Positions 16,093 through 54,580 of a stretch of 64,000 nucleotides of DNA are shown one piece after another. This stretch comes from Lobosporangium transversale (taxonomy: Eukaryota): positions 124,001 to 188,000 of the forward strand of contig NW_019029022.1 in assembly GCF_002105155.1 (NCBI RefSeq). Reading direction: 5' to 3'. A model generated the notes under the pieces. The model worked only from the letters and a program-made list of their open reading frames with translations, was not told where the DNA came from and searched no databases. The position numbers and the translations under genes are program-made. The stretch's first letter is position 1; every line of letters starts with the position of its first letter.

Positions 16093-19000
16093 ATGTCTAA
16101 ATATCCAGGCAAGTCAACGCGAGAGGGGAAAGAAACACCAAAACACGTGCAGCTACCCTGTGTCAGGTGGCTCCCCAAGGCATCCATCCAATGGTGACAA
16201 ATGCCTCACCGAAAATAAAAAGCAACGCAGCTCGTGTGTCTGTGTTTCGAATTGGCCTCCACTCCCCCTTGAAATGTTAATATCGAGTTCTAACATGTCA
16301 CCTTGCTATCCTGTATACACTAATCAATAATTAGGCCATCATCCAGTAAATCATCCTCGAGGAGGATTTCCGCCATATCCTCCAGGATCAGGATCAGGAC
16401 CAGGACAAGTTGGACCAGGAGGCACCAACATGAACAATATTCCTGGACAGGGTCTACCAGGACCTACTCGGATTGGATTTCCATCTGGACGACCCATGGG
16501 TAACATGAGTCTTAATAATCAGGGACATAACATAGGTGGAGGCTATCCGGGACAGTTTCCTCCTTCAAACATGTCGTATGGCAATAGCAATAACAACAAT
16601 AATATGGTCAATCCCAACAACAACAGCAATAGTAACAATTCTCAAATGCCCTATGGACATGCTTCCCAACATACTACCCCAACCCATTCACCTTACTCGT
16701 CTTCGCCATCTTCGTCAGCCTACTCAAATTCGAACAAGCCACATTCGACCGCGCCATTGCGGAGGTATATTTTGCTTCCGCCACCAAGAAAACGAAAACT
16801 GCATAAAACGAGTGATTTAGGTAAAAGAGGTCGAACAAATCTTGCTTCCGAGGCTCTATTCTTCAGTTGTGATATCCATTGGCCGTAAATTGCGTGGTAC
16901 TATTACACAAATTTGACTCAACTTATTTTTTCTTTATTTGTGCCACCAATACGCAACTAGGCTATCCTGGAGTTTTTCCGCAGCGCCCCGGGCAGGATGA
17001 GGATCAAATGACGCCCACCAATGTCAAGGCTGGGTTTATGGATAAAGGCATTATACAGGTAACAAGCTAACTACATTTTTTTTTATTCTGTAATAAGCAT
17101 AAAAAGTTAGCAATATGATGTTAATTACACTTTCTTAATTTAGAATGATATTGTATCTGCTCAAGGAATACTCGCTGATGGTCTTCAGGACCCAAAGAAA
17201 CTTCGTGAGTTGGGCGCATTCATGGTAGAAGTTTTGAAGAAAAGACAAGAGAGCAACAGGATCACAGGGTAGAGTATCACAAAGCATGGACCAGAAAACA
17301 TAACACTTGAACATAGGCGTTTATTCGTGGCGTTGTGACTAGAATCATGTGGTTAACAAAGAAACCAAAATATCACTATAACCTGAATAGGCCAAGTACA
17401 TTCAGACCCCCTAGTCGCGCAACTCTAAATGACCAGAAGAAGGAGCAATGGCTGTCAGACTTGTCAGGAACAGTGTCCTTACGTCGACTTTCAAAAAGTG
17501 TGCCTCATGGATTCAAATCAGAGAAACTGTTGGAGGCTCTTGCTCAACGCCAAGTACCATTGTTGCGAGCTACCTGGTACATCAAGATTGTGGCCCTTAG
17601 TGAGATGCAACCTCAACGAAATCGACCAGGCATAACACAGCATCAGTACTCAGCTGAATGGACTGCGATCGTCAATTTATTCCTGAGAAAGCAGCTTTTG
17701 GAGATCAACCCCAACCCTACCTCAAAACCCGCTACTTCTGCACTCAACCCAGCAAGTGGGACACAGAATGTTAAGCCATGGGCAAATGAGGAGGCAAAAG
17801 AAAAATGGGAGGCCAAATGGCGATATTCTGTCATGTTGACAAAATGGCAATATAATGAAGGATTGTTGGATCATCGTCATTTTCTTAGAGTCACTGTAGA
17901 GCAACTAACAACACTAGGATTTGAACAAGTGACGTTGTTACTGAGCTTAATTTCTATGTTTCTCTCCGAATATGCGAGGTCAAGACTTTTGATGAGGCTT
18001 TTGATCGAAGGACTCTTGAGCACCCTTCAATCTGTATGGTTCTTGACATTTTTGTCCGCATAAGTATTTTGATTGTGAATAAGACGATATGATAAAATTC
18101 TATAATGCAAAGCAGTTACCTGACGCCATGGCTTTTTTTAAACAATGAGAATAGGTGCAAAAACATCCATCATATAATCAACCTGTATTTCGCTATAGCG
18201 ACCTTGAGTTGGAGCTGAAGCGAATGATTCAGGCAAGTGTATTAATTGGCAGAGCACTATATCAAGCTGTTGGTTTTTCAGTTTAATGACTTTTTTTCTG
18301 TTACCAGTCAATATTTCTCTCCACGCCAGACATGTTTGTAATACCCAAGGCTTGGGCAATACATTCCAGCCTTCTACAGCAAGTACTTCTCCAAGACATG
18401 CAAACAACTGTCTACAAGCCTGCAGTGTTTCCCAACGTCGTTTCAGTGTTGGAGGCCCAATACAAAATGATTCATGCACGCGTAAATGTCTTTACAGGGC
18501 TATCTTCTATAGGATCAGATCAAGACTGGAAAAGCGCAAGACTAGGGAACCATGTTGATGTAAGCCGATGTTTCTAGGTTTTTTTATGTATTTATTTTGC
18601 TCAAATCAATCACTCCCTGAAGCTCTTTTGACTCACAATCAATAAATTTAACCTCTTTTGGTGAAAACGCTGTAGATCCTAGACCATATAGACCATACCT
18701 CAGACCTAGAGCAAGTAGCGCAGGAATATTTTTCAGAAGCCGTCGATAGTTACACGCCATCGTCAATACCATCCACGCCGTCAAAAATGACTTTTTCTCC
18801 CGCCACCACTCCATTAGCAGGAACTTCTCTACCTATACCGCCTTCATCGCCTTCAACGTCACATACATCATCTTCATCCCAGTGGATAGACAGAGTATGG
18901 AAATCCCGTCTCAACACCCTATGTGAATGGGCTATAACAAATTCGCGCTATGGACATCACCGTGTTTATATTGCTTGTACACTTCTGGGCATTTGGCGTG

Positions 19001-22000: not shown

Positions 22001-25000
22001 TTCTAGTGGGTTCATGATGATGGAAGGTGTGACTATGACAGCAGGGCCGGGTAATCCATCTGAAGGTGCTGAGCCCGTGGGATTAACGAGCAGTGGGGGA
22101 GGCGCTGGCATGAATACAGGCGTAGAGGGCGATTCTCTTCAGCAATTGATTCAAATATTTTTCCAAGAGTTTGTCTTGTCTGAAAATTCGAACAAAGAGC
22201 TCTTGGGACGGATGATTATCGGCATGAGATCAGATGCTGTTGAAGAAGTAAGCACTAAAACAAAAGAAAAAAAAAAAGAAAAAGAAGTATATAGTTTGAT
22301 CTATATCTATGTGTACTCATAAGTTCGTCCTGCTTTTATCTTCTTCAATACTAGTTCATTCGCTTTGGATACAGTATTTTGGCTGGAAATCCAAATGATC
22401 CTTTTCCGCACAATGTTATGATTGCTCATCGACCTGTTACCAGTACAGCTTACGTCAAGATCGTGGCAAACTTTCATTATATCATGGAAATCCTCCTGAA
22501 GGAAGGACAGCCTACAGTTCCACTGTCGTTGGTTGCAGATGAGAATTCTACACAATCATCTGTTACTGCTGTAGCGCCTTCCCCAACTCCATCTGCTAGT
22601 AACTCGCAGCCAACGAACAACAACGCCAACAACAACGCCAACAACAACCAGACAGTTGACCCATTGCAGGGATTGGATGCAGCACAGTTGGAGAGTAGAA
22701 TTGGATTTGCAAAGAGTCTGCTATTGCAGCTTAAGAAATTTGAAGATAGGATCAAGTTTTTTGATGTTATGCATGCGATAGGATGCTCATATGAGGAAGC
22801 ATCCAAAGTCATCCAGGATAGTGAGACAGCAGGCGCTGACATGGAAGATTTGTTGCTGAATGCCTCAATGCAACGCAGTCATCTTGCTCAGAGCCAACTG
22901 CATTTGATGTCTGAAAATAATCCGTTCCAGCAACAGCAGCAGCAACAGAAACCAGCGCACTCCACCACTTCTGATGTCTCCAACGCCAGTTCTGCAGTCT
23001 ACTTGATCGACCTTCGGACATCCCTCTGTCTGAGACTCCGACTCCTAGTCCCTTTACTCCCAGTCATCCTTCAACAGCCATCACCTGCTGCGTGTGATCT
23101 TGCTACGTATGTGATTCGTCTGACCAACTTGTTGGTGTCATCCATCGTGCATGGACAAGGGTCTGAAGAGCGTTTGTTTGAGTTTTGTCTGGACATGGTC
23201 TCATGTTTGATGGACGAAGTCCTTCTCCTCAGTGGTGGAAACGACTCTAAGGCGATGAGGAACGATATTTTGAACCAGCTTCGAGCAGGGATGCCTCTGA
23301 TGACAAACTCGATCCCAACGGTGTTTGCAAGCAGGATTTTCAGAATTTTGCCCTTTCAGCAGCATAATGTCTATTTTACAGGTCTCCGTATGTCGCGTGA
23401 TGGTGGATCCAAGGGAGGAGCATCTAAAGAAATTCAGCCGCGGCCTTGGGATTGGCTCGAGGATTGTATTGGGGATGTCGATGGGCACCAGCAATCATCT
23501 CAGAATCCGGCGCTTGGTTTAGGACTGCTGGATGGGGGATCGTCGTCATCTTCGGGGCTTATGAACGGGGACAATGGTGTTAATTCATCGTCATTGTTTC
23601 TTTCAGGATCATCCTCCTCGATGGCACAAAATGAGAATGGCAACAACACGTCTATTTCGCTCACACTCTTTGGTGCTAAGCAGATCCGAAAATCTACAGA
23701 AGGAACAACGTATGAAACACAGTTCAACTTGGGCCACGGCGGAGGCGATGATGAGCAAGAATTGATTTTGGCTGAGGAACAACAGCGTCCATGTCAATAT
23801 GACCATTCGCACCAGCAGAATCTGCTTATGTTACACCATCAACAAAAGCAGGAGCAACTGCTGCTTCAACAACAACAACAGCAACAACAACAGCAACAAC
23901 AACAGCAACAACAACAGCAGCAGCAAATTGAGAGCACAATAGAGAATAATCAGAATCAAGACACTGGATTATCATCGAATAATAATATGATGGAGATCGG
24001 TCTATTTGACCCAGGTTCCTCGGGCGATGGTAATGGGATACGGTCAGGTTCAGTACCGCCTTTACCTCGGCAACAAGAACCAGATCCCGAGCTGGAAGAG
24101 GGACAAATTGTGAGCGAGGATTTAGACATGAATAGCATGGCATGGGATAGCCATAGCATCAGTCAGAGCAACAGCAGCAACAGCATAATCCCGGGGACAG
24201 CAGCCTCTGTAGGTACAGAAGAGGGTGAAGTGGTTGAGACGAAGAATGAAGGTGAGATGGGTGGTGATATACTTGCAACCATTACTACCACCACCTCCAT
24301 CTCAGGCTCTAATGTGCCTGTGACAATATCTGCGAATGTACCTGTATCTACGCCAGCAGTTACCGCATCTATAGCAACACCCGCTATGTCTGCAGCAACA
24401 ACAGTTCCAGCAACAGCCGCAGTGGCAACAGCAGCGTCCTCAACTAACAGGAAGAAGGCGTCGACGAGCAAAACAGCCCGAGGGGCAGCCTCAACAGCGG
24501 CAGCAGTGACAAAGTCTGTACGTGGAGGGAAGGGTAGTCGTGGAGGAAAAGGAAGCAAAACTGCTATTGCAACAGTTGGCTCTGGTCCTGGAACGACATC
24601 TGTGACTGCGAGTACGACAACAACAGTTACTGCTTCATCTTTAGCAGCAACAACAGCAACGTCAGTGGATCTAACAGGGACGTTATCATCGACAGTGACA
24701 CAACTAACTCTACCAACGTCCGTGTCATTGCCTCCAGCTCCTCAGCAGCCGCAGTCACAGCAACAGCAACCTCAACCGATGATACCTCAACAGATTTCGC
24801 AACAATTCCAGCCATTTCAGACACAGCAGCAGCAGCACCAACAGATGTTTCAGAATCAAATGCGTGTTGGGGTTGGCTCAGGAGTCATGCATTCGGGACT
24901 TCCCATGTCTATTGCACTTCCACCACAGAGTCAATCTGGGTTGATAGGAGGCAATGTGAATGTGAATGTCAATGCGGGGGGTGTTGCAATGGGTGGAGGA

Positions 25001-25381
25001 CTGGGGGGAATGGTGAGTAGCCAACAGCTGATAAACAGAATGCGGCAAGCAGTTGCAGCTGCAGCAGTACCAAACGGAGGAGGGGGGGGGAATTTGACAA
25101 CGACCATTGGAGGGATTCATGTTCCATATCTGAACGGACAAAATAACCAGTCATTACATCAGCAACAACAACCCCAGCAGCTGCAACAGGCTCAGTATAT
25201 AGATCCATCAACATATATGAATAACGGAGGAGTAGGAGGGGGCATACAGAATCAGAATGGATCGATGGGATTCAACCCTGGCAACCCTATGAACATTCAT
25301 TTAGGATATTTGAATAATAATAACAACAACAACAACAACAACAATAGCAATATTAACAACAACCAATACCATCAACAATAA
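16093..25381 (+). CDS. MED12: Mediator kinase-module subunit Med12/Srb8, multi-exon, roughly 2600 aa (estimate)
   Basis: Med12 signature PPSRATLNDQKKEQWLSDLSGTVSLRRLSKSVPHGFKSEKLLEALAQRQVPLLRATWYIK; EGLLDHRHFL; LFGNLIHDRLFSYQQYLQRLIARG; Q/N-rich C-terminal tail. Confidence 0.92.
23866..23926 (+). repeat. CAA/CAG trinucleotide repeat encoding poly-Q in Med12
   Basis: Directly visible. A poly-N (AAC/AAT) tract also lies at ~25312-25362. Confidence 0.9.
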
Positions 25382-25870
25382 CCCTTCCTTAATCATAATT
25401 TTTTTTTTATTTTTGTCGAGTAGTTTAGGATGTAGAATAGTTGTAGTAAACATCACCAATTACACGAGCCGCCTTTTTTTATTACTATTACTCTCATAAT
25501 AGAAACAATGTGCCTGTATTAATTGCTCATCAATCATTAATTCAATCAAGGGAAGTTACAAGAGTAAGACACCAGTGACAACACAGCAATTGACCTATCG
25601 CCCTTTGATCCTTTCCCCGGGACAGGATAGAGTAGTCTCTATAGGAGGTGCATGGTGAATGCGAAAGCGTTCAAGTATTAAAATTGGAACATACAAAGAT
25701 GTTTTTTGTTTTTCTAGTCCCATTTGAATTTTATGAGTCAAGCCAAACAAACATTTATCATTTGATAACATTTTAAAAAAGTGGGTTTACATCATTTCTT
25801 CTTTGTCTTCTTTAGTCTGTATCTCCCCCTTTTTTTCACCACACCTGCCATTCTTGCAATCACTCCTACC

Positions 25871-27194
25871 ATGAATCTGCTCAACAATAATGACACTCTT
25901 AGTCTTCCCAAGGTAGGTTAAAAAATGCGATATGGTAATTAGTAACGTTACGCCGATAAGCATTGGTCAATTGCTTTTGCCCAAATAATAATAATTATTT
26001 TTAAAAAAAAAAAAAAAAAAAAAAAACGTAGCTTCGAAATGTCTTGATTCGACTTGAAGACACCATCATCTTTGGTAAATGAGATTCTTTTGCATTCCAA
26101 TGACACTAATTGAAGCAAAAAAAAAAAAAAAAACAACCGCTGTCTCTAAATTTTGACCTAATTGAGAGACAATGCTCCTTCTTTCATGGTGTTTGTACAT
26201 CCATAGCTTTAATCGAGCGTGCACAGTTTGCGTTGAACCAACGTATCTACGAGCCGGGAATGTACCAATATGATGATGCGAAGTACAAGGGCTCATTCTT
26301 GGGTTACTTTTTGCATGAAATGGAAAAAGTCCATGGTAAGGGGGAAAAAGAAAAAAAAGAAAAAAGGGGGATTAAAAGATGCAGACCCCCTTATTTTTTT
26401 TTTTTTTAAGCTTCTAGCTTAAAATATATCATTTTTTTTATATGTATTAGCTCGAGTTCGTCGTTACACATCACCAGATGAATATCCATTCACATCACCT
26501 TTGCCAGAGCCGGTGTTACCACCATTAAATTTTCCGCCGGTCCTACATAAGAACGACATTAATGTGAACAAGGATATCATGGAGAGATATTTAAAGGATA
26601 TAGTGCCCAAGATTTGTCCCCCGGGAGATGATCAAAACTATGGATCTTCAGCCACTAGGGATGTAGAATGTCTTCAGGCGCTCAGCAAACGTATCCATTA
26701 CGGTAAATGAAAGAAGAAATTGAATGCTTCAATCTTGCCTCTAAATTTCATTTCTTTTACTTATTTCCTTTTTGTGTGTGTGTGTGTGTTTATGTGTTGG
26801 AGGACATCTAGGCAAGTTCATTGCAGAATCAAAGTTCATTGATCCTAAGGAACAAAAGACATATATTCGATTGATCCAAAACAAAGATCGTGACGGGCTC
26901 ATGAAATTGTTGACCAATCGAACGGTGGAGGAAGCACTGTTGAGACGATTGCGTCGAAAGGCCATGATCTATGGTCATGATATTACAGAAACTGGAGAAA
27001 TCGATGGTGGTATTGCTGTTGATAACAATGGCCAACCACTGTCAGCATCAGAACAAGCTGAACAACACAAGAATCGAAAGATCCGTGCAGATGTGGTGGT
27101 GGATCTCTATGAACGGTTTGTGATCCCTTTGACAAAGGAAGTTGAAGTCGACTACTTGCTGCAGCGATTGGATGGGCTGAAGGTCCCAGAGTAA
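25871..27194 (+). CDS. ARO7: Chorismate mutase (eukaryotic AroQ type), multi-exon
   Basis: Spliced [27 protein letters not shown] ... [13 protein letters not shown] ... [31 protein letters not shown] ... [17 protein letters not shown]. Confidence 0.95.
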
Positions 27195-27404
27195 AAAAAA
27201 TAAAATAAAAAAATAAAATAAAGCTTTGGTTCAAGCAAATAAAGAATGTAATTCCCTATGCAAATGACGAACTGATCTACATGTCCTGTTACATTGGAGG
27301 AATAAAAAGATATTAGGATGCGATATGCTGTGCTCAGTTTGGGCACACCACCGGCTCAACTCTCCTTTATTAACAATTGCCTGGATGGGTCAACTCACAT
27401 TGTA

Positions 27405-27563
27405 GAGTCCTCACCAGAAAGTCGACAAACATATTTTTAAAATACTGTCTGAATCAAAAAACGATGGCTGAATTAATTCAGTGGCTTATTATCTGAAATA
27501 GAAGGCTATTTTATTTAATTTAAATCGAAAATATATTTGTCGACGACTTTCTTGAGAGGACCC
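27405..27563. mobile_element. Putative MITE (~160 bp) with ~35-bp imperfect terminal inverted repeats, flanked by TA
   Basis: Left end GAGTCCTCACCAGAAAGTCGACAAACATATTTT versus reverse complement of right end GGGTCCTCTCAAGAAAGTCGTCGACAAATATATTTT. TA at 27403-4 and 27564-5; AT-rich non-coding interior. Confidence 0.6.
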
Positions 27564-29139
27564 TAGTTAATGTTGCAAGAACGCGCCCATGTAGTACAAG
27601 ATTAAGAGGCTCCAAACTATGTACTAGTTGATGTACATGTAATAAAAAATCTTTCCACTATTCGCATCAGAAGACGATGACCTTATTGTCTTTCTTCTAC
27701 ATCTTCTATATCTATGCGGTTGTATCTTCAAACACCTATATCTCATCCCAAGAGAAATAGTACAAGGAAGTAAAAAATGGTTATCTCAACTATAACCTAC
27801 ACAGCGGGCCCGAATACTCCTTCGTTAACTCGCAAAGGAATATTTTCGATAGAACCCGAAATGCTCTTTCCAATTTATGAGTCGCAAGCCTCCCGTCCTC
27901 CAATAAGCTGGACAGAAATGTAGAAAGTATGTAAATATGAATATATGAAAATATTGGCGAAGAAAAAAAGAGGGAACGGAGTGAAAGGACCAAGGCTGAC
28001 GAGAAAAGGTGGTTGTCTTGTTTGTCTAGACGAGGGCAGCACCTCATTTCTTCCCAAAAGAGGTATCTCTGCCCTACTTCACAAAAGCAATAAGCTGGGG
28101 CGGCCATAAATGTAGAGGATCGTAGACATAGTATGGGTATAGCCTTACCGCCCAGGCTGGAGACAGCAGCTGTACCGCTCCTTCTACAAGATACCACATG
28201 AAATAGACGCTGAATAACCATCTTCCTTCCCTTTCTCCTTGAATAATCTTCCTCACTAGATGAAAGGGTGAGGCAAGAAGAGTGCGTCATTCACCGTCAG
28301 GTTAGTCTCGAATGTAGGGGTGGTTTTGTTCAAAGAGATGTTGCCGGAAGGCTGATTATTCCTCTCGAAAAGTCCAGCTGTCAAGAGCTTACGCTGCAGA
28401 TAAGACAGAATTCCATTTCCGAACTAGGTGGCGGATATATGGATATGGATGATGGATCCCTGGTAAAAGGTGGTGGATAGCAGGCGATAGCAGGGTAAAG
28501 GTAAGAGTAGATATTTATTGAGGAAGAGCTATTCAAGCGGGGATTGCGCCTTTATCTATACTATGATATGATTACACTTAAATGTCGTTATAAATCACGA
28601 TATTCAAGGACATAAACTAGGCGCGAGGCTTGCACGGCCTCAAATTTTGACGGACGTTCACACTCGGGTGGCGGACTTGTAGTTTTGCCGCTAGCCCGTG
28701 ACACCGCCATTCACCCTTATGAAGAGAGAACAAGCAGGGAGGCGGCGCTGAGCTCGAACCATCGGAAGAAGCAGCTAGGCATATCGGAGAATAGGTACAC
28801 TTGAATGAATGAGAACTAAAAAGAGAAAAAATGGAAATAAAAAGACTGTTGGGGGATAGTGAAGGCTAAAAAACATAAATGGATTACATGCCTACTCATC
28901 AAGTTCGTGAAGATCGCTGCATAGTTTCTGGGCGGAGTGTCTTAGGAACGCTTTTGATGAGCGTATAGCGATCCTTCGAGGGGCAGGAGGCGCTTCTTCT
29001 CGGCCAATGCCCTCTTAATTCTATCCTGTCTTTATCTACGTTCCATTTTCCATTCTTTGATTAATTGATCCTCAGTTTCCCTCAAAACCCCCACTGGGCT
29101 TGCAATTAGCTTGGTATTAGTCTCGGACAAGGGATGGGG

Positions 29140-29273
29140 GGAAGTGAGCCCGACATGTGCTATCCAAAGATTGGCTGAGTAGAGAATACTTCAAATATTT
29201 CACTTTTTGTACGCTTTAGAGCCAGACCGATGAATAAACGACTGCAACGCGTCAACAGTCGTGTGTGCATGCG

Positions 29274-29308
<35 letters not shown>

Positions 29309-30615
29309 AAATGAAAAGCGAACAACGATGATGCCATCCAATATCTTTTCATATTCCTACAAGATGAAGGAGGAAGAAAAACAGAAAACACTTTCAAATG
29401 GAGGCAAGGATGATACTCCATCTCATCTTCAAGCTTTGCGAGACTGTATAAACAACAGCAATAACTAAAATACAAGCCTACTGCCCTCGAACTGTTTAGC
29501 CGCTCTACATGGTGGGGTGGCGCAACAAAGAAAAAAAGATCCATTTAGACAGCGAGCAATGTGATGCGGCTGAAAGTAAAAAAATGAGTTTCAGGGCACA
29601 ACCATATTAGCATTCGCATACTCTTACTTCATTAACATTAAGCTCTAGTACTTTTTGATTCTTGGTAATAGGGCTCATTAGGTACTACCAATCAAGCTTT
29701 CATTTTTATTCTCTTCTTCTATTTCCTCTCTTCACTCCTCACAAGAGATGTGATAGACAATCGAGAACTGTGTTTCGGCAGGTTGTATCCTAATGCCTTT
29801 TCCCAGAATACGACATATGCCAATTCTCAACTCACTCGCAGTCCTTTTTTATTATTTTCATGTAAAGTAATAAAATATAAACATATGACATGTGACAGCT
29901 GATTAGGCTGTGCATTTTATTTTATTTTATTTGAAAGCGAATTAATATTTGTATGTCGACCAATAAAAAGCACACGAGTGATGTGTCTTACTTTTACCGC
30001 GTTCTGGAAAAACAAAAAAAAAAAGGTCTGTTTGGACAAAAGCTGCTACGGTACAGTTCCTGCGATAGTCTGTCTATTCCATCTGCTATTGGGAGTGAAG
30101 AGAGAGAATAAAGAAGCAAGCTTGACTGGTAGTGTCTGGTGAACTCCATTACGAAGGATTAATAATAGATACTCGAGCTGAATGTTGTTGAAAATGATAG
30201 CATGCGAGTGTTAATGTGCTTGTGCTCTGAATCTCACTGTCTAAATAGATATTTCTTTGTTGCACCACCTTAGCATGCAGAGAGCAATGTGGCTCGTGCT
30301 CTGATTGTTTGTGGGTAGCCTAATATTGTTGTTTAGATGATCTTGCAGATCTTGAAGACGGAATGTTAGCAATGCTATTCCCCACCTCCACCCATGAGTA
30401 CTTTCTCTTTTTCTCTCTTGTATGCATATGAGAAATGACGGATGATATCATGTAGTGCGCATATTATCCATTTTCAAATTCCGCTATGCCGCTTTTTTTC
30501 TTTTTTTCTTTTTTTTTTTTTGGCCGCTCTAGAGCTCTAGAGCGTACAAAAAGCAAGATGCTTGATATATTCATTATTCAGTCAATACTCTGAAATCGCA
30601 AATTGGTTTCACTTA
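29140..30615. repeat. Old, nearly spacerless palindrome (diverged arms ~750 bp, centre ~29895)
   Basis: Collinear inverted matches: CTTTTTGTACGCTTTAGAGC (29203) with ~30534-30553; CAACAAAGAAA..ATTTAGACAG (~29523-29552) with ~30237-30263; ACTACCAATCAAGCTT (~29684) with ~30118-30133; TCACTCG (29832) with CGAGTGA (29975). Confidence 0.85.
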
Positions 30616-30687
30616 TCATTTTTCCTGCGCGACTTCAAAAACCACTCATCATTCATCCATTCGTCCTTTACTCGCGAGTGCTTTCGA

Positions 30688-30694
30688 TATAAAA
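30688..30694 (+). promoter_or_regulatory. TATA box of the palindrome-borne transcription unit (mirror copy at ~36663-36669, minus strand)
   Basis: TATAAAA followed by a poly-T/pyrimidine leader and then the first splice donor. Confidence 0.55.
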
Positions 30695-30695
30695 T

Positions 30696-30740
<45 letters not shown>

Positions 30741-30953
30741 CCTTTCCTTTTCTTTTCTTTTCTTTCTTTCCCTTTTTTTCTTCTCTTCCAGTTTAGCCTC
30801 CTCGACCAACATGAAAGGTAAGCAACACTCCACAAATATTCACCCTCACTAAAGTCCTAACTCTCTCACCTTATGCTGCACTGTACTTGTTCTGACTTTT
30901 TATTTCCTGTCTATCTCTCTTTCTCTCTCTTTCACATCACTGTTAGACCACAA

Positions 30954-31642
30954 ATGATACAAACTTCTAGCCAGATACAGAGCAGAACTAGGAAACACTC
31001 TGAACAACTCAACAGCAAACTACAGACCAGAAAAAGCAAAAAAAGCCTCACCTGGTCATTCACAGAAGAGCCCTCGCCGCTGTCATCAAGTAAGTATATA
31101 GTTTATGCATGGCTTCGCTTTGTCTTGCTTGTGATTGTCCCTACCATCGAATAAGCTTAGCATACTTACAAAGCTATCTTCGTTCTTTTTTTTTTTTTTT
31201 TTTTTTTTCTTCGTCTTCCTCCTAGCTGTAATAGGGGCCACTAGCCCTAGGCTCATGGCGACGATTGTCCCAAAGACTGCAATGGGCCCATGCAGTGCTT
31301 ATCGAAATGGGGCGAAAGCGGAGCTGTAAGTACAATTTCTTTTAGAAGCACATGTCGTGATTTTCTGTCTGTACTCTGCTGTGCTCTGATTACCAAATAT
31401 TCTAACCACGCGTGTTTTTTTTTTTGTCTTCTTCCCTTAGAGGCTCATCCGCTTGGACTCTAGCCCGCCGGGCCCTCCTCCCGCCTGCCCGCCTGCCCGC
31501 CAATCCCCTTCGCCGATCCCCTTCGCCGATCCTTCCGTCAAGCCCTCGCAACTCCTTGAAGGGGGATCATTGTAGTAGCTCTAGAGAGCCTCTAGCCTCT
31601 GGACCTTACTTTGATCCGAGTGCCCTTGGGGATTTCGCGTAG
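30954..31642 (+). CDS. Putative 145-aa basic S/P/R-rich orphan protein from spliced exons 2-4 (copy 1)
   Basis: Exons 30954-31089, 31226-31325 and 31441-31642 join in frame: MIQTSSQIQSRTRK...EPSPLSS/TVIGATSPRL...GAKAEL/GSSAWTLARR...ALGDFA*. No recognisable domain. Confidence 0.4.
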
Positions 31643-32788
31643 GTAACAGATGACACACAGTTGTGGTCGTCTAAGTATGGTAAGTCAGTAGCAGTGGCCT
31701 GTTTACTAGGCCCTATAGAGCTCGAGTCCCGGCCTTCAAGGAGATCCTCCATCCAGCAGGATCAGGATCAGGATCAGGACCAGGTGTTATCAAGGCCTGA
31801 TAACACCTCAGGTAAGTATACATGCGCATACATAGCAAAGGGCATATTAACTTGATTCTACCATTGCTTTTGTTCTCTCTGTTTAGGTGGGATCTTGGCA
31901 ACTCGGAGCTCTATAGTGTTTAGTAAATAGTTCATTGTTACTGACATCATCCTTAGATTACCCCAATTAGCGAAGCTGCACCAGGCGCCTGGCTGTAGTG
32001 TGTAGTGCATGGCGTAGAGGCGTCATGTTGTGTGACCTGTTACTTGCCGTCTGAACCAAAGGTACTCTGGTCATAGTAGGGCTTCATTGGCTAGTCGCTC
32101 GATAGACTATTGCAATGAGACCTCTGCTTGGAGAAGCGAGAGCAAGGGTCATAAGAGGAGTAGAGGACCTTGAGGCATAAAAATAGATCGAAGAGCACCA
32201 TGCTTCGAATGCGGCTAGGAGCGCAGGGCCAACAGAAAGCAGACAGCAGCCGAGGGCCGAAAGCCAATAGTCAAGAGCCAGCAGTCAGCAGTCAACACCC
32301 AACATCTAACAGCAGAAAAAAAAAAAAAAAAAAAAAAAAAAAACACGCACGAACACGAACACACACAAACATAAGAGAGAAAACCCCAAAGCAAAAAAAA
32401 AAAAAAAAAAAAAAAAGATAAAAACCGAAACTAACTCAAAAAAAAAAAACACTCAAAGTCAAAGGCAGCCTCAGCCAAAGGCATAACAGGCAGCCAAAGC
32501 CATAACAGGCAGCCTTGACCAAATCAAACACACACTGCCCCGATCAAAGCAAGCGCACGCAACCTCACTCACGCCGGCCAAAGGTATCCCAGAATAATCC
32601 AGACAACCAGAGCCAGATGGCCGAAGCCAGGTAACCAAAGCCGGAAACTGAAGCCAATCAACCGAAGGGATGCCAGATGACCGATTCCAGATGATCGAGG
32701 CCGAATAGCAGAAACCGGGCGATCGCAGCCAGTCAAGCAAAGACGGTCAACTTTAGACAGTCAACTAAAGAAAGCCAACCATAGACAA

Positions 32789-32840
32789 TCAACCAAAGCC
32801 AGTCGACCAAAGTCAGTCAACCAAAGTCAGTCAATCAAAG
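32789..32840 (+). repeat. Degenerate 14-nt tandem repeat (CAACCAAAGTCAGT-like); diverged mirror array at ~34385-34470
   Basis: caaccaaagccagt cgaccaaagtcagt caaccaaagtcagt caatcaaag. The mirror reads caaccaaagtcagt cggccgaagctaac cagccgaagtcagt... on the minus strand. Confidence 0.75.
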
Positions 32841-34139
32841 GTTACCAATGTCAATCATTCAAGGCATTACCAAAAAATGTACCTAAAAAAAAAATCAAAA
32901 TATAACTAAAGGTTACCAGGAAGCACACAATAATCCATACATATCAAGACTACTTACTTCTAAAGGCTCAAAGATCTTGCCATCCTTGGGATAGGATGCA
33001 GCTTAAAAGTGAAAGCATAGTAAACAATTAGCAATAAACATTGTTTGTTCGAAGTGTTGGTAGATGGGTATCCTTGATCATTATGATTGTAGTTTCCCCC
33101 TCAATAGAAGGCAACATAACTGTAGAAGGGCAAATAGAATAAGCTGTACTGGTTCTTGCTAGCAAGCCGCTCCGTGAAAGTAACTAGTAGTGTTGCCGTT
33201 TGGGCATATCTATGACCCTGAGGCGCAATCCAATCAAAAACATGAGTAGCTTTAGTGCTATTGGCCTCTATAATCACATGTGGGATCTCTCCCCAGGCTA
33301 TAAAATAACCATTTGGGCGGATTTTTGCACCTTTGGTCTGATTACAGCAACTTAATCAGGTAGTGCATTCCGCCTGCAAAAAGACGATGAGGAAGATGCT
33401 GATCCTATTTTTTGGGGGAGGGAAAACAATACCGTGCATTGCTCTTTTTCATTGGAAGGCATGGCTTAGCAGCTTATGTGTTTAATTGGTAAGTTGCATC
33501 CACAACTACATTGTCTCAATTTTTTCCTCAAGCAAGGCCTTTGCTCATTGACTGCGAGAATGTGCCATTTCATAGCGTTTGTTGTGTTTAGTGGGTCCGT
33601 TTAAAAAACATTCAAGATTCAATTCCCGTTATTTTGAATAATAATCAAAGAACTGGCCATCAAGAGGGGATCTCACTATAAAGATGGCAGTCTACTGAAT
33701 CCACTAAGTTGCAGAAAAAAGAAAATAAACGAGGCAAATCGGGCAATAGGAACGCGTTGATCTCATATCGCTTACACAAATATACTTTCATCAAACCCCC
33801 TCCATGTCCATACTGGACCACCACAAGCGCGCGGCTGGGTGTGGCTCGTGCTCACACAAATGTATTCACTAGCCAAATTATACTCTGCATCCGAATTAGC
33901 GAGGATGATCTCAAGAGTTCTTTTATTAAAAAGCTTTATCGATTGCCATGTCGGATATTTATTGAAAACCAGGACTGCTTGAGCCCGATGGCTATTTCCC
34001 ACTTCATGTTATACACTCCAATGATACCAACGATTCAATGTTCAACTTCTTTCCTTGGATATAGTAGTTATTGAGTAAGTTATACTTTCAATTCGGGGAG
34101 GCAACTACAGTCATAACGATCAAGAACATTTATCCATCT

Positions 34140-34924
34140 ACCAATATTTCAGACAAACAATGTTTATTGCTAATTGTTTACTATGTTGGCGCTTCCGAGC
34201 CGCACTCTATCCTAAGGATGACCAGGTTCGTAGGCAAAAGACTTTTGTTTTGTTATTTAGAGGTAGATAGTCTTTTGTGGATTATTGTTTTGGCCTTTGG
34301 GCTTCTTTGAAAATATTTTTAGTGTATCCTTGCGCAGTGCCTCGGATGATTGGCTTTGATACCTTTCAGTCGGCTGCCATTAGTTGGCTGGCTTTGGCTG
34401 AATGACTTCGGCTGGCTGGCTTCGGCCGACTGACTTCGGCTGGTTAGCTTCGGCCGACTGACTTTGGTTGTCTGGATCATTCTGGATTGCCTTTGTGGTT
34501 TGATTGATGTTGGTATGTTTGTTTTGATTGAGGCACCCTGTGTTTATTTTACCTGGCGCTCCCTTTGGTGATTTGGTTAAGGCTGAGTGTGTTTACTTTG
34601 ACTGGGGAGCTCGCGGCTACCTTGACTAGCGCTGCCCCTAGTGGTTTGATTGAGGCAGCCTGTGCTGGTTTTGATCAAGGTACTCTACTATTGGCTTTAA
34701 TTAAGGTTGCCTTTGGTTGATTTAGTTGAAGCTGCCTATGTCTGGTCTGGCTGTAGCCGCTATGCTTGATCGGGCGGAGAGCGCTGGATGAAGCTGCCTT
34801 GTATTAAGCTTAGTTGTGGAAGTCTTCGGTTGACTATGACTTTGGCGTTGGCATTGGTGTTGGCTTTGGCTTTGGCTTTGGCTTTTTTTGATTTTGTTTT
34901 TGTTTTTTGAGTTAATTCTTTTTT

Positions 34925-34962
<38 letters not shown>

Positions 34963-35007
34963 TTGGGGTTTTCTCTCTTATGTTTGTGTGTGTTCGTGTT
35001 CGTGCGT

Positions 35008-35039
<32 letters not shown>

Positions 35040-36615
35040 CTGCTGTTAGATGTTGGGTGTTGACTGCTGACTGCTGGCTCTTGACTATTGGCTTTCGGCC
35101 CTCGGCTGCTGTCTGCTTTCTGTTGGCCCTGCGCTCCTAGCCGCATTCGAAGCATGGTGCTCTTCGATCTATTTTTATGCCTCAAGGTCCTCTACTCCTC
35201 TTATGACCCTTGCTCTCGCTTCTCCAAGCAGAGGTCTCATTGCAATAGTCTATCGAGCGACTAGCCAATGAAGCCCTACTATGACCAGAGTACCTTTGGT
35301 TCAGACGGCAAGTAACAGGTCACACAACATGACGCCTCTACGCCATGCACTACACACTACAGCCAGGCGCCTGGTGCAGCTTCGCTAATTGGGGTAATCT
35401 AAGGATGATGTCAGTAACAATGAACTATTTACTAAACACTATAGAGCTCCGAGTTGCCAAGATCCCACCTAAACAGAGAGAACAAAAGCAATGGTAGAAT
35501 CAAGTTAATATGCCCTTTGCTATGTATGCGCATGTATACTTACCTGAGGTGTTATCAGGCCTTGATAACACCTGGTCCTGATCCTGATCCTGATCCTGCT
35601 GGATGGAGGATCTCCTTGAAGGCCGGGACTCGAGCTCTATAGGGCCTAGTAAACAGGCCACTGCTACTGACTTACCATACTTAGACGACCACAACTGTGT
35701 GTCATCTGTTACCTACGCGAAATCCCCAAGGGCACTCGGATCAAAGTAAGGTCCAGAGGCTAGAGGCTCTCTAGAGCTACTACAATGATCCCCCTTCAAG
35801 GAGTTGCGAGGGCTTGACGGAAGGATCGGCGAAGGGGATCGGCGAAGGGGATTGGCGGGCAGGCGGGCAGGCGGGAGGAGGGCCCGGCGGGCTAGAGTCC
35901 AAGCGGATGAGCCTCTAAGGGAAGAAGACAAAAAAAAAAACACGCGTGGTTAGAATATTTGGTAATCAGAGCACAGCAGAGTACAGACAGAAAATCACGA
36001 CATGTGCTTCTAAAAGAAATTGTACTTACAGCTCCGCTTTCGCCCCATTTCGATAAGCACTGCATGGGCCCATTGCAGTCTTTGGGACAATCGTCGCCAT
36101 GAGCCTAGGGCTAGTGGCCCCTATTACAGCTAGGAGGAAGACGAAGAAAAAAAAAAAAAAAAAAAAAAAAGAACGAAGATAGCTTTGTAAGTATGCTAAG
36201 CTTATTCGATGGTAGGGACAATCACAAGCAAGACAAAGCGAAGCCATGCATAAACTATATACTTACTTGATGACAGCGGCGAGGGCTCTTCTGTGAATGA
36301 CCAGGTGAGGCTTTTTTTGCTTTTTCTGGTCTGTAGTTTGCTGTTGAGTTGTTCAGAGTGTTTCCTAGTTCTGCTCTGTATCTGGCTAGAAGTTTGTATC
36401 ATTTGTGGTCTAACAGTGATGTGAAAGAGAGAGAAAGAGAGATAGACAGGAAATAAAAAGTCAGAACAAGTACAGTGCAGCATAAGGTGAGAGAGTTAGG
36501 ACTTTAGTGAGGGTGAATATTTGTGGAGTGTTGCTTACCTTTCATGTTGGTCGAGGAGGCTAAACTGGAAGAGAAGAAAAAAAGGGAAAGAAAGAAAAGA
36601 AAAGAAAAGGAAAGG

Positions 36616-36640
<25 letters not shown>
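34140..36640 (-). ncRNA. Putative five-exon structured transcript, copy 2 (convergent with copy 1)
   Basis: Mirror of copy 1 up to the poly-A tract near 34927-34959. Its 3' part is diverged but keeps the 33-bp AATAAA island (34153-34185). Confidence 0.6.
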
Positions 36641-36661
<21 letters not shown>

Positions 36662-37932
36662 ATTTTATATCGAAAGCACTCGCGAGTAAAGGACGAATGG
36701 ATGAATGATGAGTGGTTTTTGAAGTCGCGCAGGAAAAATGATAAGTGAAACCAATTTGCGATTTCAGAGTATTGACTGAATAATGAATATATCAAGCATC
36801 TTGCTTTTTGTACGCTCTAGAGCTCTAGAGCGGCCAAAAAAAAAAAAAGAAAAAAAGAAAAAAAGCGGCATAGCGGAATTTGAAAATGGATAATATGCGC
36901 ACTACATGATATCATCCGTCATTTCTCATATGCATACAAGAGAGAAAAAGAGAAAGTACTCATGGGTGGAGGTGGGGAATAGCATTGCTAACATTCCGTC
37001 TTCAAGATCTGCAAGATCATCTAAACAACAATATTAGGCTACCCACAAACAATCAGAGCACGAGCCACATTGCTCTCTGCATGCTAAGGTGGTGCAACAA
37101 AGAAATATCTATTTAGACAGTGAGATTCAGAGCACAAGCACATTAACACTCGCATGCTATCATTTTCAACAACATTCAGCTCGAGTATCTATTATTAATC
37201 CTTCGTAATGGAGTTCACCAGACACTACCAGTCAAGCTTGCTTCTTTATTCTCTCTCTTCACTCCCAATAGCAGATGGAATAGACAGACTATCGCAGGAA
37301 CTGTACCGTAGCAGCTTTTGTCCAAACAGACCTTTTTTTTTTTGTTTTTCCAGAACGCGGTAAAAGTAAGACACATCACTCGTGTGCTTTTTATTGGTCG
37401 ACATACAAATATTAATTCGCTTTCAAATAAAATAAAATAAAATGCACAGCCTAATCAGCTGTCACATGTCATATGTTTATATTTTATTACTTTACATGAA
37501 AATAATAAAAAAGGACTGCGAGTGAGTTGAGAATTGGCATATGTCGTATTCTGGGAAAAGGCATTAGGATACAACCTGCCGAAACACAGTTCTCGATTGT
37601 CTATCACATCTCTTGTGAGGAGTGAAGAGAGGAAATAGAAGAAGAGAATAAAAATGAAAGCTTGATTGGTAGTACCTAATGAGCCCTATTACCAAGAATC
37701 AAAAAGTACTAGAGCTTAATGTTAATGAAGTAAGAGTATGCGAATGCTAATATGGTTGTGCCCTGAAACTCATTTTTTTACTTTCAGCCGCATCACATTG
37801 CTCGCTGTCTAAATGGATCTTTTTTTCTTTGTTGCGCCACCCCACCATGTAGAGCGGCTAAACAGTTCGAGGGCAGTAGGCTTGTATTTTAGTTATTGCT
37901 GTTGTTTATACAGTCTCGCAAAGCTTGAAGAT
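34927..37932 (-). repeat. Right outer arm of large inverted repeat (~3.0 kb)
   Basis: Reverse complement of 29425-32416. Outer junction ATCTTCAAGC / GCTTGAAGAT is sharp. Confidence 0.97.
35713..36402 (-). CDS. Putative 145-aa orphan protein, copy 2
   Basis: Mirror of 30954-31642 with the same splice sites. Confidence 0.4.
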
Positions 37933-38270
37933 TGTACGCGAACAAGTGCCTACACAAGCAAGGCGTCATTTAATATGGCGACAACGCATCCCAAGATCCC
38001 AAATGAGCATACGCCTGAACTGGCCCTTTGTAGCTTAGAATGTAGCTAGGTAAACTCGATAGCTAGATAGCAAACAATTTCTCAATAAAGATTAAAAAGT
38101 GTTTGATTCAAATAGCAAGTGACGCCTCTCTTAATGCATCTTCTGTTGCGCTGTGTCTGTGCTTTGGAACGATAATGATCAAAAGGCAAGCTCAGGCGAA
38201 TTCGCAAAGGGCAGCCGCTTCTCTGAATGTCTGTTCCTATGCGAAGCAGTCTGTATCCTTTGAGACCATT
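37932..38270 (+). repeat. 339-bp direct repeat, copy 1
   Basis: Matches 39345-39683 with about 10 substitutions counted by eye (~97%). Begins exactly where the palindrome arm ends. Confidence 0.95.
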
Positions 38271-51404: not shown

Positions 51405-53244
51405 TTAGTTGCATTCATCCTCTCCAGGGACAGCAATGCACAGAAAACCAACGCGTAAAGCTTCCTCACTCTCATTCCTTTGACGTATCTGATAGGCCCA
51501 TGCTTCAGATCTGTCCCACAACTCCATCACATCCTTGCCTTCCCTAGCAACATGTTCTGCTTCGACAGTGCACTGAGGTGTCAGGACTATAGCTTCTTTA
51601 GCGGTGCTATGGTGCTTGTAGTCATCCAAGGGATGTGTGATCCTGGCTGGGAAAAGATCCACCCCATCCTTTGTCTTTGTTCCAGTAGTCTCTCCATACG
51701 CAAATTGGATCCACATCGTCTGTACTCGCTCCATGAATCGTTTTTCATCCTCATTCAAGACTTTCTCGAGTGCATAGTCTGGTCCGAACACATACACAAG
51801 ATCAAGACCATGATGCGCACCCCAGCCACGGCCAACAGCATCCACTGCCTCAATAGAGCGTTCAAAATAATACTGAAATAACTTGAACCTTTCTTCTCCC
51901 TCCTTTGAACCCTCGCGCAACGACTGTGTTGATGGTTGGGAGGAGTCCAAATCTTTGCGCTTGGAGAGCACTCGCAAGACAGAGAAAACTGGGTAGGCAA
52001 ACACACAATGATCCAACACTTGCTCAGATACTTTTTTAGCATCTAAATCAGTCTTTGGCTTCCCATATACCTTTTCCCACAATTGTTGGCTGACTTCATC
52101 AGGAGGACAGAACCTCTCGTACAACCTTGGCAGCCCTTTTAGTGTTGTGGGGCCCATGGCCGGTAGAAGCGAGCTCGCCTCATTTAACATGCATCCAGCC
52201 ATGACAGCTTTGACCCCTTGGTCGAACATTTCAGCCTTTTGGGCTCGTATGTAAATATCTTTAGGAACCATCAGTCCGTCCGCATAAGGTGTGACCAGTC
52301 GAACCCTCTTAGAAGATACAGCTAAAGCCAGCTCCATGCTTGGCACTTTTTTCAGTAGCTCAAGCTTCTCTTTCCCGGACAACTCCTTTGGAATATTAAA
52401 ATGATCGACCAGAAAATCAAAGTAAAGCTTTCCTTCCACATGGGGCCGAATGGCTGTAAGAGGGGTAAAAGCGCCAGAATGCATGATCGCTCGATGGAAG
52501 AGGCCATGATGCTGAGGGATTAACATGTGGTAATTGACGCATACAGCACCAGCTGATTGACCCATAGCCGTGATATTGGAGGGATCACCACCAAAAGCTG
52601 CAATGTTGTTGTGGACCCATTCAAACGCAAGACGTTGGTCTTGAAGTCCCCAGTTCCCGGTAGCCCTCTCGTAATCAGTCTTGAGATTTGGATCCGACTC
52701 AATATCTGCAATAAGCTCTGGACAAGAGAAGAACCCGTGGAAGTTAAGTCGATAGTTGGGAACAACCACAATCACAGGACGCCCTAGCTTTGTTGCCTGG
52801 CGGACCAGATTACTGCCATCTAAAATATCCGACTCTTTCTTTTTTTAGTAACTGCTCTCTTCTGCTTCCATTATTATGAGAAGGAAAGGTTCTTATTTTT
52901 AAATGCTTATCAAATCTTACCATAGAGCTCCATAACATTGGCGCCATCACAGGATCCGCCCCCATGAATGAATACAACAACGGCTGCGCCTTTGGATTTT
53001 ACTTCTGCTGTCTCGACCACCTTCTTCTTTAGTGTGTCCTCATGCACAAAAACGTTGAGGTTTAGACAATGTTTCTCATCAAACTCGGTGGTTTCATCGT
53101 CAAAGTCGACAGGTGAAAAAGTATTGATGTGCCTTGAAATGCGCCCTTCTGCTTTGGGTTGAGGACAGACTGGTCTAAAGTGAGCAGAAAAAAAAGAAAC
53201 AAGAGACATTCATTGATATGACTGTATTGAAAGCAAAAAAAGAA

Positions 53245-53278
<34 letters not shown>

Positions 53279-53566
53279 TCGACGACAAATTACAATATTG
53301 CCTGAAGAGGAGTCTTATTGATAGAAATATGTGTATATCTTCATGGTGTCCTTATTCTTGTTGCACTTTGGACACACATACCCTAATTTGGTCGCATCAC
53401 GAACACCGGTCCATGGCTCAGGCTTAACAGCAGGCCGCCATCTCTCCTGAACAACACCGAAGGGAACATTCAAGAAGCGAACAACATCTTTGTTTGGATC
53501 CAATGCACCTTGAATGATACCTTGGTTTGCAATATGAATTTGAGTTGTGTCTGATGGCTGACTCAT
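51405..53566 (-). CDS. Type-B carboxylesterase, paralog 1, 3 exons
   Basis: FLNVPFG, CLNLNVF, FIHGGG, NYRLNFHGF, NWGLQDQRLAFEWV, nucleophile GQSAG, candidate triad Glu (LNE) and His (AHHGLDL). Confidence 0.92.
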
Positions 53567-54197
53567 ATTGGAACAAATAAAAAAAATAAAATTGTGCAAG
53601 AGTGAGAAAAGGATACAGAGCAAAAAGTGTGATGTTCATGATTTTTATTTTTTTTTCCTTTGAGCCTTCCAGGCTTCTGGACCCCTTCTGCCCCTTCAGT
53701 GACACTGATGGCTGTAAATTGTTACGGCAGTGAGACTGATGGGTGTAGATTATCGTGGGAATATTTTCTCCCCAGACTGGGCCACGTGTTACAGGTGTAG
53801 AACTCAAGATTTGGATCATGAGAAATATTCGGTCCACAACAGATGACCAACATTGCTACTCGCGCGCCTTGTAACTAAAAACCATGCTACAATTAAGAAA
53901 TTTGTCAAATCGTCCAGCTTCCCTGTCTGTTTACCCTCTCTGATATTTTTATTTATTTATTTTCTTATTTATTTATTTATTTTACTTTCAATTTCGCTTA
54001 TTGCATTTTGGACTCATTGAGAACTCGAAATATAGAGTTCGTCCAAAGGTAAGTAAAAAAAGAAAACAAAACACTAGCACTCTGAAGGATAGGGAAATGT
54101 GGAAGAAGAAGTTCAGGAAGCTGAGGTTCTTAGGTCGAGACATGTTATCTCCTATATTGCAAAGAAAAGGACAAATAGATTAATAAAGCATTCACAT

Positions 54198-54561
54198 TGT
54201 TGGTTTTAGTTTTAGTCACGTGTAGAGGGTTCGCCACCAACTATTTAACGAGCAACAGCTCAGGAAAATCTGGCTCCTTGTTCCTTATTTTTACACAAGA
54301 GCCATTTGAGTACTGACTGTTCTCGTCCAGGTAAAGAGCCCTCACAACGTTCGTCGTTAGTAGCCATAGATCATTAAAGGTTCCTTATTTTTACACAAGA
54401 GCCATTTGAGTACTGACTGTTCTCGTCCAGTCTTTGAGTAGTGTGTGTGTTCTTTTATTGTGTTAGAATTATTTATCTATCTGCAGCTGGAAGTGACCGG
54501 CTTCATAATCCACCAAAACGACCTAAATCTCCTACCACATCTGCCCCTAAATTTTGCAACA
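54198..54561 (+). repeat. 5' LTR
   Basis: Matches 60763-61126; contains an internal ~51-bp duplication (54280-54330, 54380-54430). Confidence 0.97.
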
Positions 54562-54568
54562 ATATTTC

Positions 54569-54580
54569 TGGTGATCTATG
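54569..54580 (+). promoter_or_regulatory. Primer binding site candidate TGGTGATCTATG
   Basis: Lies 7 nt after the 5' LTR, starts with TGG, and is also complementary to LTR 54365-54376. Confidence 0.6.

What the first reader, a model, noticed from the sequence alone, without database searches (positions are those of the whole stretch)
29425..37932. 8.5-kb palindrome with identical outer arms but diverged inner arms: apparent arm-to-arm homogenisation
Seen: 29425-32416 and 34927-37932 differ only in homopolymer lengths where checked. Identity stops abruptly at a poly-A tract, yet inverted homology continues at much lower identity to ~33120/34075, leaving ~950 bp of unique spacer. No transposase or TSD is visible. 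Inference: the duplication is old (inner divergence), while promoter, introns and the structured exon are kept identical by gene conversion or flip-flop recombination, as in mammalian Y-chromosome palindromes. Unexpected between two housekeeping genes.
Basis: partly seen in the sequence, partly recalled or inferred. Interest (0 to 1): 0.85.

Follow-up and report, generated by a model that had tools for sequence, protein, structure and literature searches.

The report
Mirror-image twin hairpin-RNA genes, soil fungus
A soil fungus carries two identical, mirror-image 3-kb copies of a unit repeated elsewhere in its genome, likely a spliced non-coding gene whose RNA is predicted to fold into a long hairpin, and the twins were likely made identical by DNA copying from one to the other.

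Summary
Arms 29425-32416 and 34936-37932 show 0 substitutions in 2,992 columns. The tails inside them are only 71% identical, around a 956-bp core. Public contigs support the outer part of the arm and the right junction, and an older fold-back running across 29425 supports the left junction. The inner half was not read-tested. The host is a Mortierellaceae fungus, probably Lobosporangium transversale.

Each is a copy of a multi-copy unit found only in this species: four more copies appear as gene models on three other contigs. The unit has five consensus splice donors, reading frames that shift between copies, and a 600-nt fold-back that favours one strand (-291 versus -226 kcal/mol; G·U:A·C 16:3). 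It most likely works as a long hairpin-RNA gene feeding RNAi, which was not tested.

Copying between homologous sequences best explains the identity. Repeated conversion and a single recent overwrite cannot be told apart, because the DNA runs look like one strain. A Y-chromosome-like role is unsupported. An inverted-repeat centromere remains possible (about 10%).

The parts
29425..32416 (+). Left identical arm
   Evidence: 0 substitutions against the right arm; outer part matched by contigs of 3 DNA runs
34936..37932 (-). Right identical arm; its outer end joins direct repeat DR1
   Evidence: junction letters shown in the X5 loose end, and contig lengths fit it in X1, X3 and X4
32417..33121 (+). 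Left diverged tail: A/C-rich 14-bp tandem repeats and a better-kept block with AATAAA at 33033 (likely the 3' end of the unit)
   Evidence: the 3'-end role is inferred
34078..34935 (-). Right diverged tail, 71% identical to the left; matching AATAAA at 34163-34168
33122..34077 (.). Unique core, 956 bp, GC 0.415, at most 67% AT in any 100 nt
30190..30740 (+). Most repeated part of the arm, probably the unit's promoter (TATA-like motif near 30688, then a T/CT tract)
   Evidence: summed contig depth about 11-20 times the flank, with many variant contigs (no copy number); promoter role inferred from motifs
30780..33121 (+). Inward, likely spliced non-coding transcription unit, left copy (donors at 30818, 31090, 31326, 31680, 31812; start approximate)
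34078..36576 (-). Inward unit, right copy
   Evidence: mirror of the left copy
31542..32143 (+). 600-nt imperfect fold-back, left copy; helices of 70, 19 and 66 pairs; predicted intron 31812-31886 in the loop
35212..35813 (-). Same fold-back, right copy
   Evidence: mirror coordinates (pair I2)
29112..30644 (.). Older head-to-head palindrome (29112-29880 / 29915-30644, 74%) that runs across the left outer edge at 29425
   Evidence: score 317 against shuffle maximum 57
37730..37852 (+). Intron of an outward transcript, seen removed in an RNA-like run; its contig runs 859 letters past the right junction (mirror place 29505-29627 on -)
   Evidence: joint 29504 to 29628, CT..AC, run X5; an unspliced contig is also present
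37933..38268 (+). DR1, 336-bp direct repeat (TG...CA ends, AATAAA inside, no TSD)
   Evidence: 10 mismatches to DR2; weak likeness to the tail block (score 47 against shuffle maxima 34 and 29)
39346..39681 (+). DR2, second copy, about 150 bp upstream of the HIT zinc-finger gene
39000..39345 (+). Possible decayed relic of the family's promoter part
   Evidence: shares an 11-mer found exactly only at 29203, 30543, 36804 and 39231; alignment weak, 10 of 300 shuffles reach it

Best explanation
The palindrome is two tail-to-tail copies of a repeated unit found only in this species, likely a spliced non-coding gene whose RNA is predicted to fold into a 600-nt hairpin that would feed the RNAi pathway, and the copies were likely made identical by DNA copying from one arm to the other. 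Shown: the identity, the paralogues elsewhere, the fold-back sequence, and one spliced outward RNA. Inferred: inward transcription and splicing; that the RNA is non-coding; Dicer processing; and that the two copies arose long ago, their tails drifting to 71%, while conversion tracts stopped at the poly-A on the inside and at the non-homologous junction with DR1 on the outside. Flipping of the middle would be possible but would only swap the two tails, so no switch function is expected.
For: Family: four L. transversale gene models on contigs of 22.7, 113 (two) and 426 kb match the arm's exons, and no other species was hit. High summed depth over 30190-30740. Non-coding: frames shift between copies at the end of exon 3 and in exon 4, and two models read exon 2 in different frames; no Pfam family reached its cut-off. 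Splicing: 5 donors on the inward strand (4 of 5000 shuffles). Hairpin: -291 kcal/mol (z -16.8) on the inward strand against -225.8 on the other; G·T:A·C 16:3, p 0.004, Fisher p 0.008 against the two other old fold-backs pooled; 0 of 60 neutral-decay simulations reach the strand asymmetry; removing the loop intron tightens the fold. Copying: 0 of 2,992 against 29% divergence in register across the edge; the third close copy differs from both arms at 1 or more sites.
Against: No small-RNA data, no RNA laid on the inward unit, and no target found: the only long match in the window outside the arms is a simple repeat in the loop. Several fold-backs were tested for G·U excess, and the part of the old palindrome inside the arm also leans to G·T (34:20, p 0.08; 32:15, p 0.02), so strand-biased mutation may contribute. 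Under two of three scoring sets the hairpin alignment covered only the outer stem, with 7:3. The consensus splice model leaves a 145-codon ORF. In X3 and X4 the arm contigs carry a 2-letter insertion behind 30278, and collapsed contigs carry a T>C at 30487; these are probably other family copies, but a small arm difference is not excluded. No contig covered the left junction, which proves nothing either way. Recurrent conversion is not distinguished from a single event.
Confidence: 0.45

Rival explanations
1. The unit is a non-autonomous mobile or segmentally duplicating element. A single recent homology-directed overwrite (template switch at the poly-A, exit at DR1) produced the identical arm. 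The hairpin has no host function.
For: Dispersed copies from about 76% to 99% amino-acid identity in the gene models; a cluster of nested and partial copies; sharp edges on both sides; the DR1 start coincides with the arm end; synteny is broken here against a relative; arm contig depth 2.4-3.3 times the flank hints at a third near-identical copy.
Against: No transposase, reverse transcriptase, TSD or ribozyme. The hairpin's strand bias suggests selection on the RNA. Introns argue against ordinary retroposition (own knowledge).
Confidence: 0.3
2. The locus is an inverted-repeat centromere of the Candida tropicalis or Komagataella type: a 2.5-kb middle flanked by 3-kb homogenised arms that are shared with other chromosomes.
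For: The geometry matches C. tropicalis: 2-5 kb core, 2-5 kb IRs, IRs 82% identical between chromosomes, tandem repeats inside, ORF-free region (PMC4741521 passages). The interval is 12.6 kb and gene-free. Synteny breaks here, as at 4 of 12 Mucor centromeres (PMC12611239 passage).
Against: The arms hold a spliced transcript, whereas K. phaffii centromeres are transcription cold spots (PMC5010909 passages). The core is not AT-rich (58.5% against 71% in Mucor) and no LINE was found. The middle looks like two gene tails. Two family copies lie on one 113-kb contig.
Confidence: 0.1
3. The arms are twin copies of a young protein-coding orphan gene for a small S/P/R-rich protein, kept identical by conversion as in Y-chromosome palindromes.
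For: A 145-codon ORF spans three predicted exons; four database gene models exist.
Against: Frames are not kept between copies, and model lengths run from 79 to 265 aa; no homologue outside the species; the ORF's end lies inside the hairpin stem.
Confidence: 0.1
4. The perfect identity is an assembly or polishing artefact: the arms were collapsed or one arm was duplicated.
For: Differences only in homopolymers are typical of long-read consensus (own knowledge). The inner half and the inner junctions were not read-tested. X1 may be the source sample, and contigs drop variants.
Against: Contigs of 3 of 3 DNA runs match 857-911 bp of outer arm with 0 other letters, at more than twice flank depth. 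The right junction is in RNA contig letters. The left junction is crossed by an old collinear fold-back. The two tails are distinct yet homologous.
Confidence: 0.05

Closest known systems
Drosophila hairpin-RNA (hpRNA) loci, for example D. simulans hp-tHMG solo and cluster (PMC10317233, passages); maize Tpd1 hairpin (PMC11390486, passages)
   Same: Lineage-specific, spliced non-coding transcripts with a long imperfect fold-back; local duplications and multi-copy arrays.
   Different: There the siRNAs, Dicer dependence and targets are shown; here none is. No related target gene was found in this window, and the two copies form a larger palindrome.
Large palindromes kept alike by arm-to-arm conversion (human Y, recalled; willow W, PMC7023750, search listing only)
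   Same: Near-identical inverted arms around a unique spacer, with evidence of old origin.
   Different: About 3 kb rather than tens to hundreds of kb; no sex chromosome known here; the arms belong to a dispersed family; conversion was not shown across strains.
Inverted-repeat centromeres of Candida tropicalis (PMC4741521) and Komagataella phaffii (PMC5010909), passages
   Same: Arm and core sizes, ORF-free interval, arms related to sequences on other contigs, tandem repeats.
   Different: The arms here carry spliced RNA and gene-like structure; the middle is partly a diverged inverted pair; kinetochore binding is untested.
Fungal milRNA and hpRNA loci (PMC9757828, passages)
   Same: Intergenic fold-back on one strand.
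   Different: That text has 0 hits for 'Mucor' or 'Mortierell' and says natural long hairpins need exploring; this fold-back is about 600 nt and multi-copy.

Membership tests
hpRNA locus (Drosophila type) | Long imperfect fold-back on one strand | tested here: met
   Helices of 70, 19 and 66 pairs; z -16.8; strand asymmetry
hpRNA locus (Drosophila type) | Transcribed, spliced precursor on the hairpin strand | tested here: inconclusive
   Donor excess and paralogue gene models; RNA contigs were laid only on the outer arm, where they show the opposite-facing transcript
hpRNA locus (Drosophila type) | No conserved protein-coding frame | tested here: met
   Frameshifts between copies; no Pfam family; no hits in other species. 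A 145-codon ORF exists in this copy
hpRNA locus (Drosophila type) | Stranded, Dicer-dependent small RNAs from the stem | not testable with these tools
   No small-RNA run was listed
hpRNA locus (Drosophila type) | Homology of the stem to a target gene | tested here: inconclusive
   None in this 64-kb window; the rest of the genome is not held
Conversion-maintained palindrome (Y type) | Arm identity far above the age of the duplication | tested here: met
   0 of 2,992 against 71% tails in register
Conversion-maintained palindrome (Y type) | Derived alleles shared by both arms across lineages | tested here: inconclusive
   The 3 DNA runs laid show no strain differences
Inverted-repeat centromere | 1-5 kb core between 2-5 kb homogenised IRs in an ORF-free interval | tested here: met
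   definitions
Inverted-repeat centromere | Transcription cold spot (K. phaffii) | tested here: not met
   Spliced RNA contig in the arm
Inverted-repeat centromere | CENP-A or kinetochore binding; one per chromosome | not testable with these tools
   No ChIP or Hi-C data; no genome held
Mucor mosaic centromere | AT-rich core (about 71%) with flanking LINE1-like elements | tested here: not met
   Core 58.5% AT, at most 67% per 100 nt; no RT ORF; definition from bioRxiv 706580 passages
LTR element or TRIM (DR1-DR2) | TG...CA ends, TSD, PBS and PPT | tested here: not met
   TG...CA present, but flanks AAGAT and TTCTT are no TSD; no PBS or PPT seen by eye
Penelope-like element or retrozyme | RT/GIY-YIG ORF or hammerhead ribozyme in the terminal repeat (features recalled) | tested here: not met
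   No Rfam match at gathering level in 25000-43000; motif scan finds no complete core

The most novel reading that the evidence does not exclude
This is the first centromere seen in Mortierellomycotina: an inverted-repeat centromere whose homogenised arms are spliced hairpin-RNA units shared among chromosomes, supplying siRNAs in cis for pericentric heterochromatin.
Probability: 0.1. Interest if true: 0.85.

Novelty: new variant of a known kind. Interest (0 to 1): 0.5.

Why it matters
Identical-arm palindromes occur in many genomes, so the architecture alone is modest news. The content is more interesting. A multi-copy, spliced, apparently non-coding unit with a long strand-biased hairpin, found only in this species, would be a natural long-hairpin RNAi locus in an early-diverging fungus. 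In flies and maize such loci mark genetic conflicts. My searches (open-access text only) listed no description of such loci, or of centromeres, in Mortierellaceae. The four database 'hypothetical proteins' are probably mis-annotations of this unit. One small-RNA library and one CENP-A or Hi-C experiment would settle the main readings.

Tried and rejected
- No whole genome is held, so family copies are known only through proteins and contig depth.
- Rfam: nothing at gathering level among 13 weak hits. No tRNA.
- Telomerase-template and hammerhead motif scans were negative.
- Exact-pattern scans found 0 matches in metagenome contigs and in viral contigs.
- One search listed no RNA holder on record. 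X5 is a guess; I treat it as RNA because it lacks the chorismate-mutase intron.
- No contig covered 29264-29424 in any of 4 runs, and X5 did not cover 27210-29424 or about 29940-30740. These holes are no evidence.
- Homology between the left flank and the stretch between DR1 and DR2 is weak (z 3.3; 10 of 300 and 152 of 300 shuffles) and is kept only as a hint.
- I dropped the idea that the hairpin has fewer indels than the other fold-backs; by rough count of events it does not differ clearly.
- The 22-nt match of the hairpin loop to 16377-16412 is a simple repeat and was rejected as a target.
- The longest ATG-started ORF in the outward spliced RNA is 65 codons.
- Only 2 of 80 fetched loci (L001, L002) carried the HIT gene, and only L002 reaches upstream of it, so the direction of the synteny break is unknown.
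- Look-ups of earlier findings by place, by sequence and by a second word set returned nothing.
- No supplements were opened; they could hold Mortierellaceae repeat or small-RNA tables.
Full report
Observation. The arms 29425-32416 and 34936-37932 align with 2,992 matches, 0 substitutions and 5 gap columns, all in homopolymers. At the terminal poly-A identity falls, but homology stays in register: 32457-33121 against 34078-34743 is 71% identical over 608 columns, far above local shuffles. A 956-bp unique core remains.

Host and setting. The nearby SDH5 protein is closest to Mortierellaceae proteins, and the paralogues below are named Lobosporangium transversale, so that species is likely. The palindrome lies in a 12.6-kb gap between chorismate mutase and a HIT zinc-finger gene; 0 of 51 ORFs scanned in the gap reach a Pfam cut-off. 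In the one relative's contig that reaches far enough (L002, 1 of 80 loci fetched), SDH5 and HIT are neighbours as here. There, however, a YJU2-like ORF (name recalled from the translation) starts about 190 bp upstream of HIT, with no chorismate mutase and no long inverted repeat. The locus is therefore a synteny break of unknown direction.

Is it real? Four of 8 listed runs were laid on 26500-30740. Contigs of 3 of 3 DNA runs match the outer arm from 29425 to 30281, 30335 and 30307 with 0 other letters. X3 and X4 carry a 2-letter insertion behind 30278, probably from another family copy. These contigs run on for 338, 1,214 and 1,215 letters beyond the arm end, lengths that fit DR1 and the T-run at 39124-39150; the junction letters themselves are shown for X5. 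Their depth is 2.4-3.3 times the flank, which is no copy number but fits two or three copies. No contig covered the left junction, but an older 74% palindrome (29112-29880 / 29915-30644) runs collinearly across 29425 (score 317, shuffle maximum 57), so that side is native sequence. X1 may be the source sample, and the DNA runs show essentially no strain differences. The inner half rests on the assembly alone.

What the arms are. First, a repeated unit. Summed depth climbs to about 11-20 times the flank over 30190-30740, with variant contigs 85-99% alike. Four gene models elsewhere match the arm's exons: P0121 (22.7-kb contig), P0122 and P0124 (113-kb contig) and P0123 (426-kb contig). P0123 equals the window's exon 2+3 translation at 78 of 79 residues. 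No other species was hit.

Second, a spliced unit. Five GTAAGY donors face inward against one outward; 4 of 5,000 shuffles reach five. The paralogue models join exons at introns 1-3, which is annotation rather than RNA evidence. Direct RNA evidence exists only for an opposite-facing transcript: X5 removes 37730-37852 and continues 859 letters past the right junction.

Third, probably non-coding. The consensus splice model leaves a 145-codon ORF, but frames shift between copies and models run from 79 to 265 aa.

Fourth, a hairpin. 31542-32143 folds at -291 kcal/mol on the inward strand and -225.8 on the other, with helices of 70, 19 and 66 pairs. G·T:A·C mismatches are 16:3 (p 0.004), against 49:42 in the old palindrome and 47:45 in the tails. 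None of 60 neutral-decay simulations reaches the observed strand asymmetry. Against this, several fold-backs were tested, and a sub-part of the old palindrome also leans to G·T (34:20 and 32:15). I put selection on the RNA structure at about two in three.

Fifth, an end. The best-kept block of the tails holds a matching AATAAA in both copies, which suggests that homology stops near 33121 and 34078 because the unit ends there (inference).

Mechanism. Two family members came to lie tail to tail long ago. Later copying made 3 kb identical, bounded by the poly-A and minisatellite tail inside and by a non-homologous junction with DR1 outside. Because the identical part joins an old homologous tail in register, the copying was homology-directed, and because the third close copy differs from both arms, the latest donor was probably the other arm (inference). 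If the arm-DR1 junction is as old as the DR pair (10 of 336 mismatches), about 90 substitutions would be expected without later copying, which favours repeated conversion. If the overwrite itself cut DR1's left flank, one event suffices. I cannot choose firmly between them. Inversion of the middle is possible, as in K. phaffii centromeres (PMC5010909, passages), but would only swap tails. The likeliest function is Dicer processing of the hairpin into small RNAs (inferred, untested; no target found in this window).

Comparison. It works like Drosophila and maize hpRNA loci (PMC10317233 and PMC11390486, passages), but membership is open because small RNAs were not testable. It resembles inverted-repeat centromeres in geometry (PMC4741521, passages; PMC12711049, abstract and outline). 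It fails the transcription-cold-spot feature of K. phaffii and the AT-rich core of Mucor (bioRxiv 706580, passages). DR1-DR2 fails LTR-element tests, and no ribozyme or RT supports a Penelope-like element. The Y-palindrome comparison is recalled; one search listed only two plant papers. Earlier notes of this scan describe similar palindromes in several other eukaryotes (unchecked), so the architecture is not rare.

Verdict. A real structure of a known architecture with unusual content: new variant of a known kind, interest 0.5.

Noticed in passing
window 54198-61130: Recent Ty3/gypsy-like LTR retrotransposon (class recalled from the translation): 368-bp repeats with 1 mismatch and gag-pol in two overlapping frames (54575-57541, 57472-60141), lying between duplicated carboxylesterase-like genes.
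   Followed up: no
window 51402-53591 and 61669-63780: Tandem duplication of a carboxylesterase-like gene, 83-92% identical.
   Followed up: no
window 27397-27573: Small imperfect inverted repeat (78%) with a second copy elsewhere in the genome, seen as raised depth and a variant contig.
   Followed up: partly
window 30525-30544 and 31782-31808 (mirrored in the right arm): Perfect 20-bp palindrome in the most repeated part of the arm, and a 27-bp near-palindrome in the hairpin loop.
   Followed up: no
window 31680-31886: A predicted intron 31680-31811 would end directly at the next donor (31812), a recursive-splice-like arrangement; using it would remove the inner stem of the hairpin.
   Followed up: partly
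window 31542-31629 / 32056-32143: The outer stem has regularly spaced 2x2 internal loops rich in like-with-like mismatches; 22 of 34 mismatches are neither G·T nor A·C. Unexplained.
   Followed up: partly
window 38950-38976 and 39726-39752: 27-bp direct match after DR2, suggesting that DR1-DR2 is a partly deleted tandem duplication rather than an LTR pair.
   Followed up: partly
window 37933-39830: The outward transcript and the repeat relics face the HIT zinc-finger gene, which here lacks the short divergent promoter seen in L002; its promoter may come from the repeats.
   Followed up: no
proteins P0121, P0122: Two gene models on different contigs are identical over their first 68 and roughly last 125 residues, a second identical pair within the family.
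   Followed up: no
window 27790-29050: About 1.3 kb with short ORFs and no Pfam match or RNA contig, possibly a decayed gene.
   Followed up: partly
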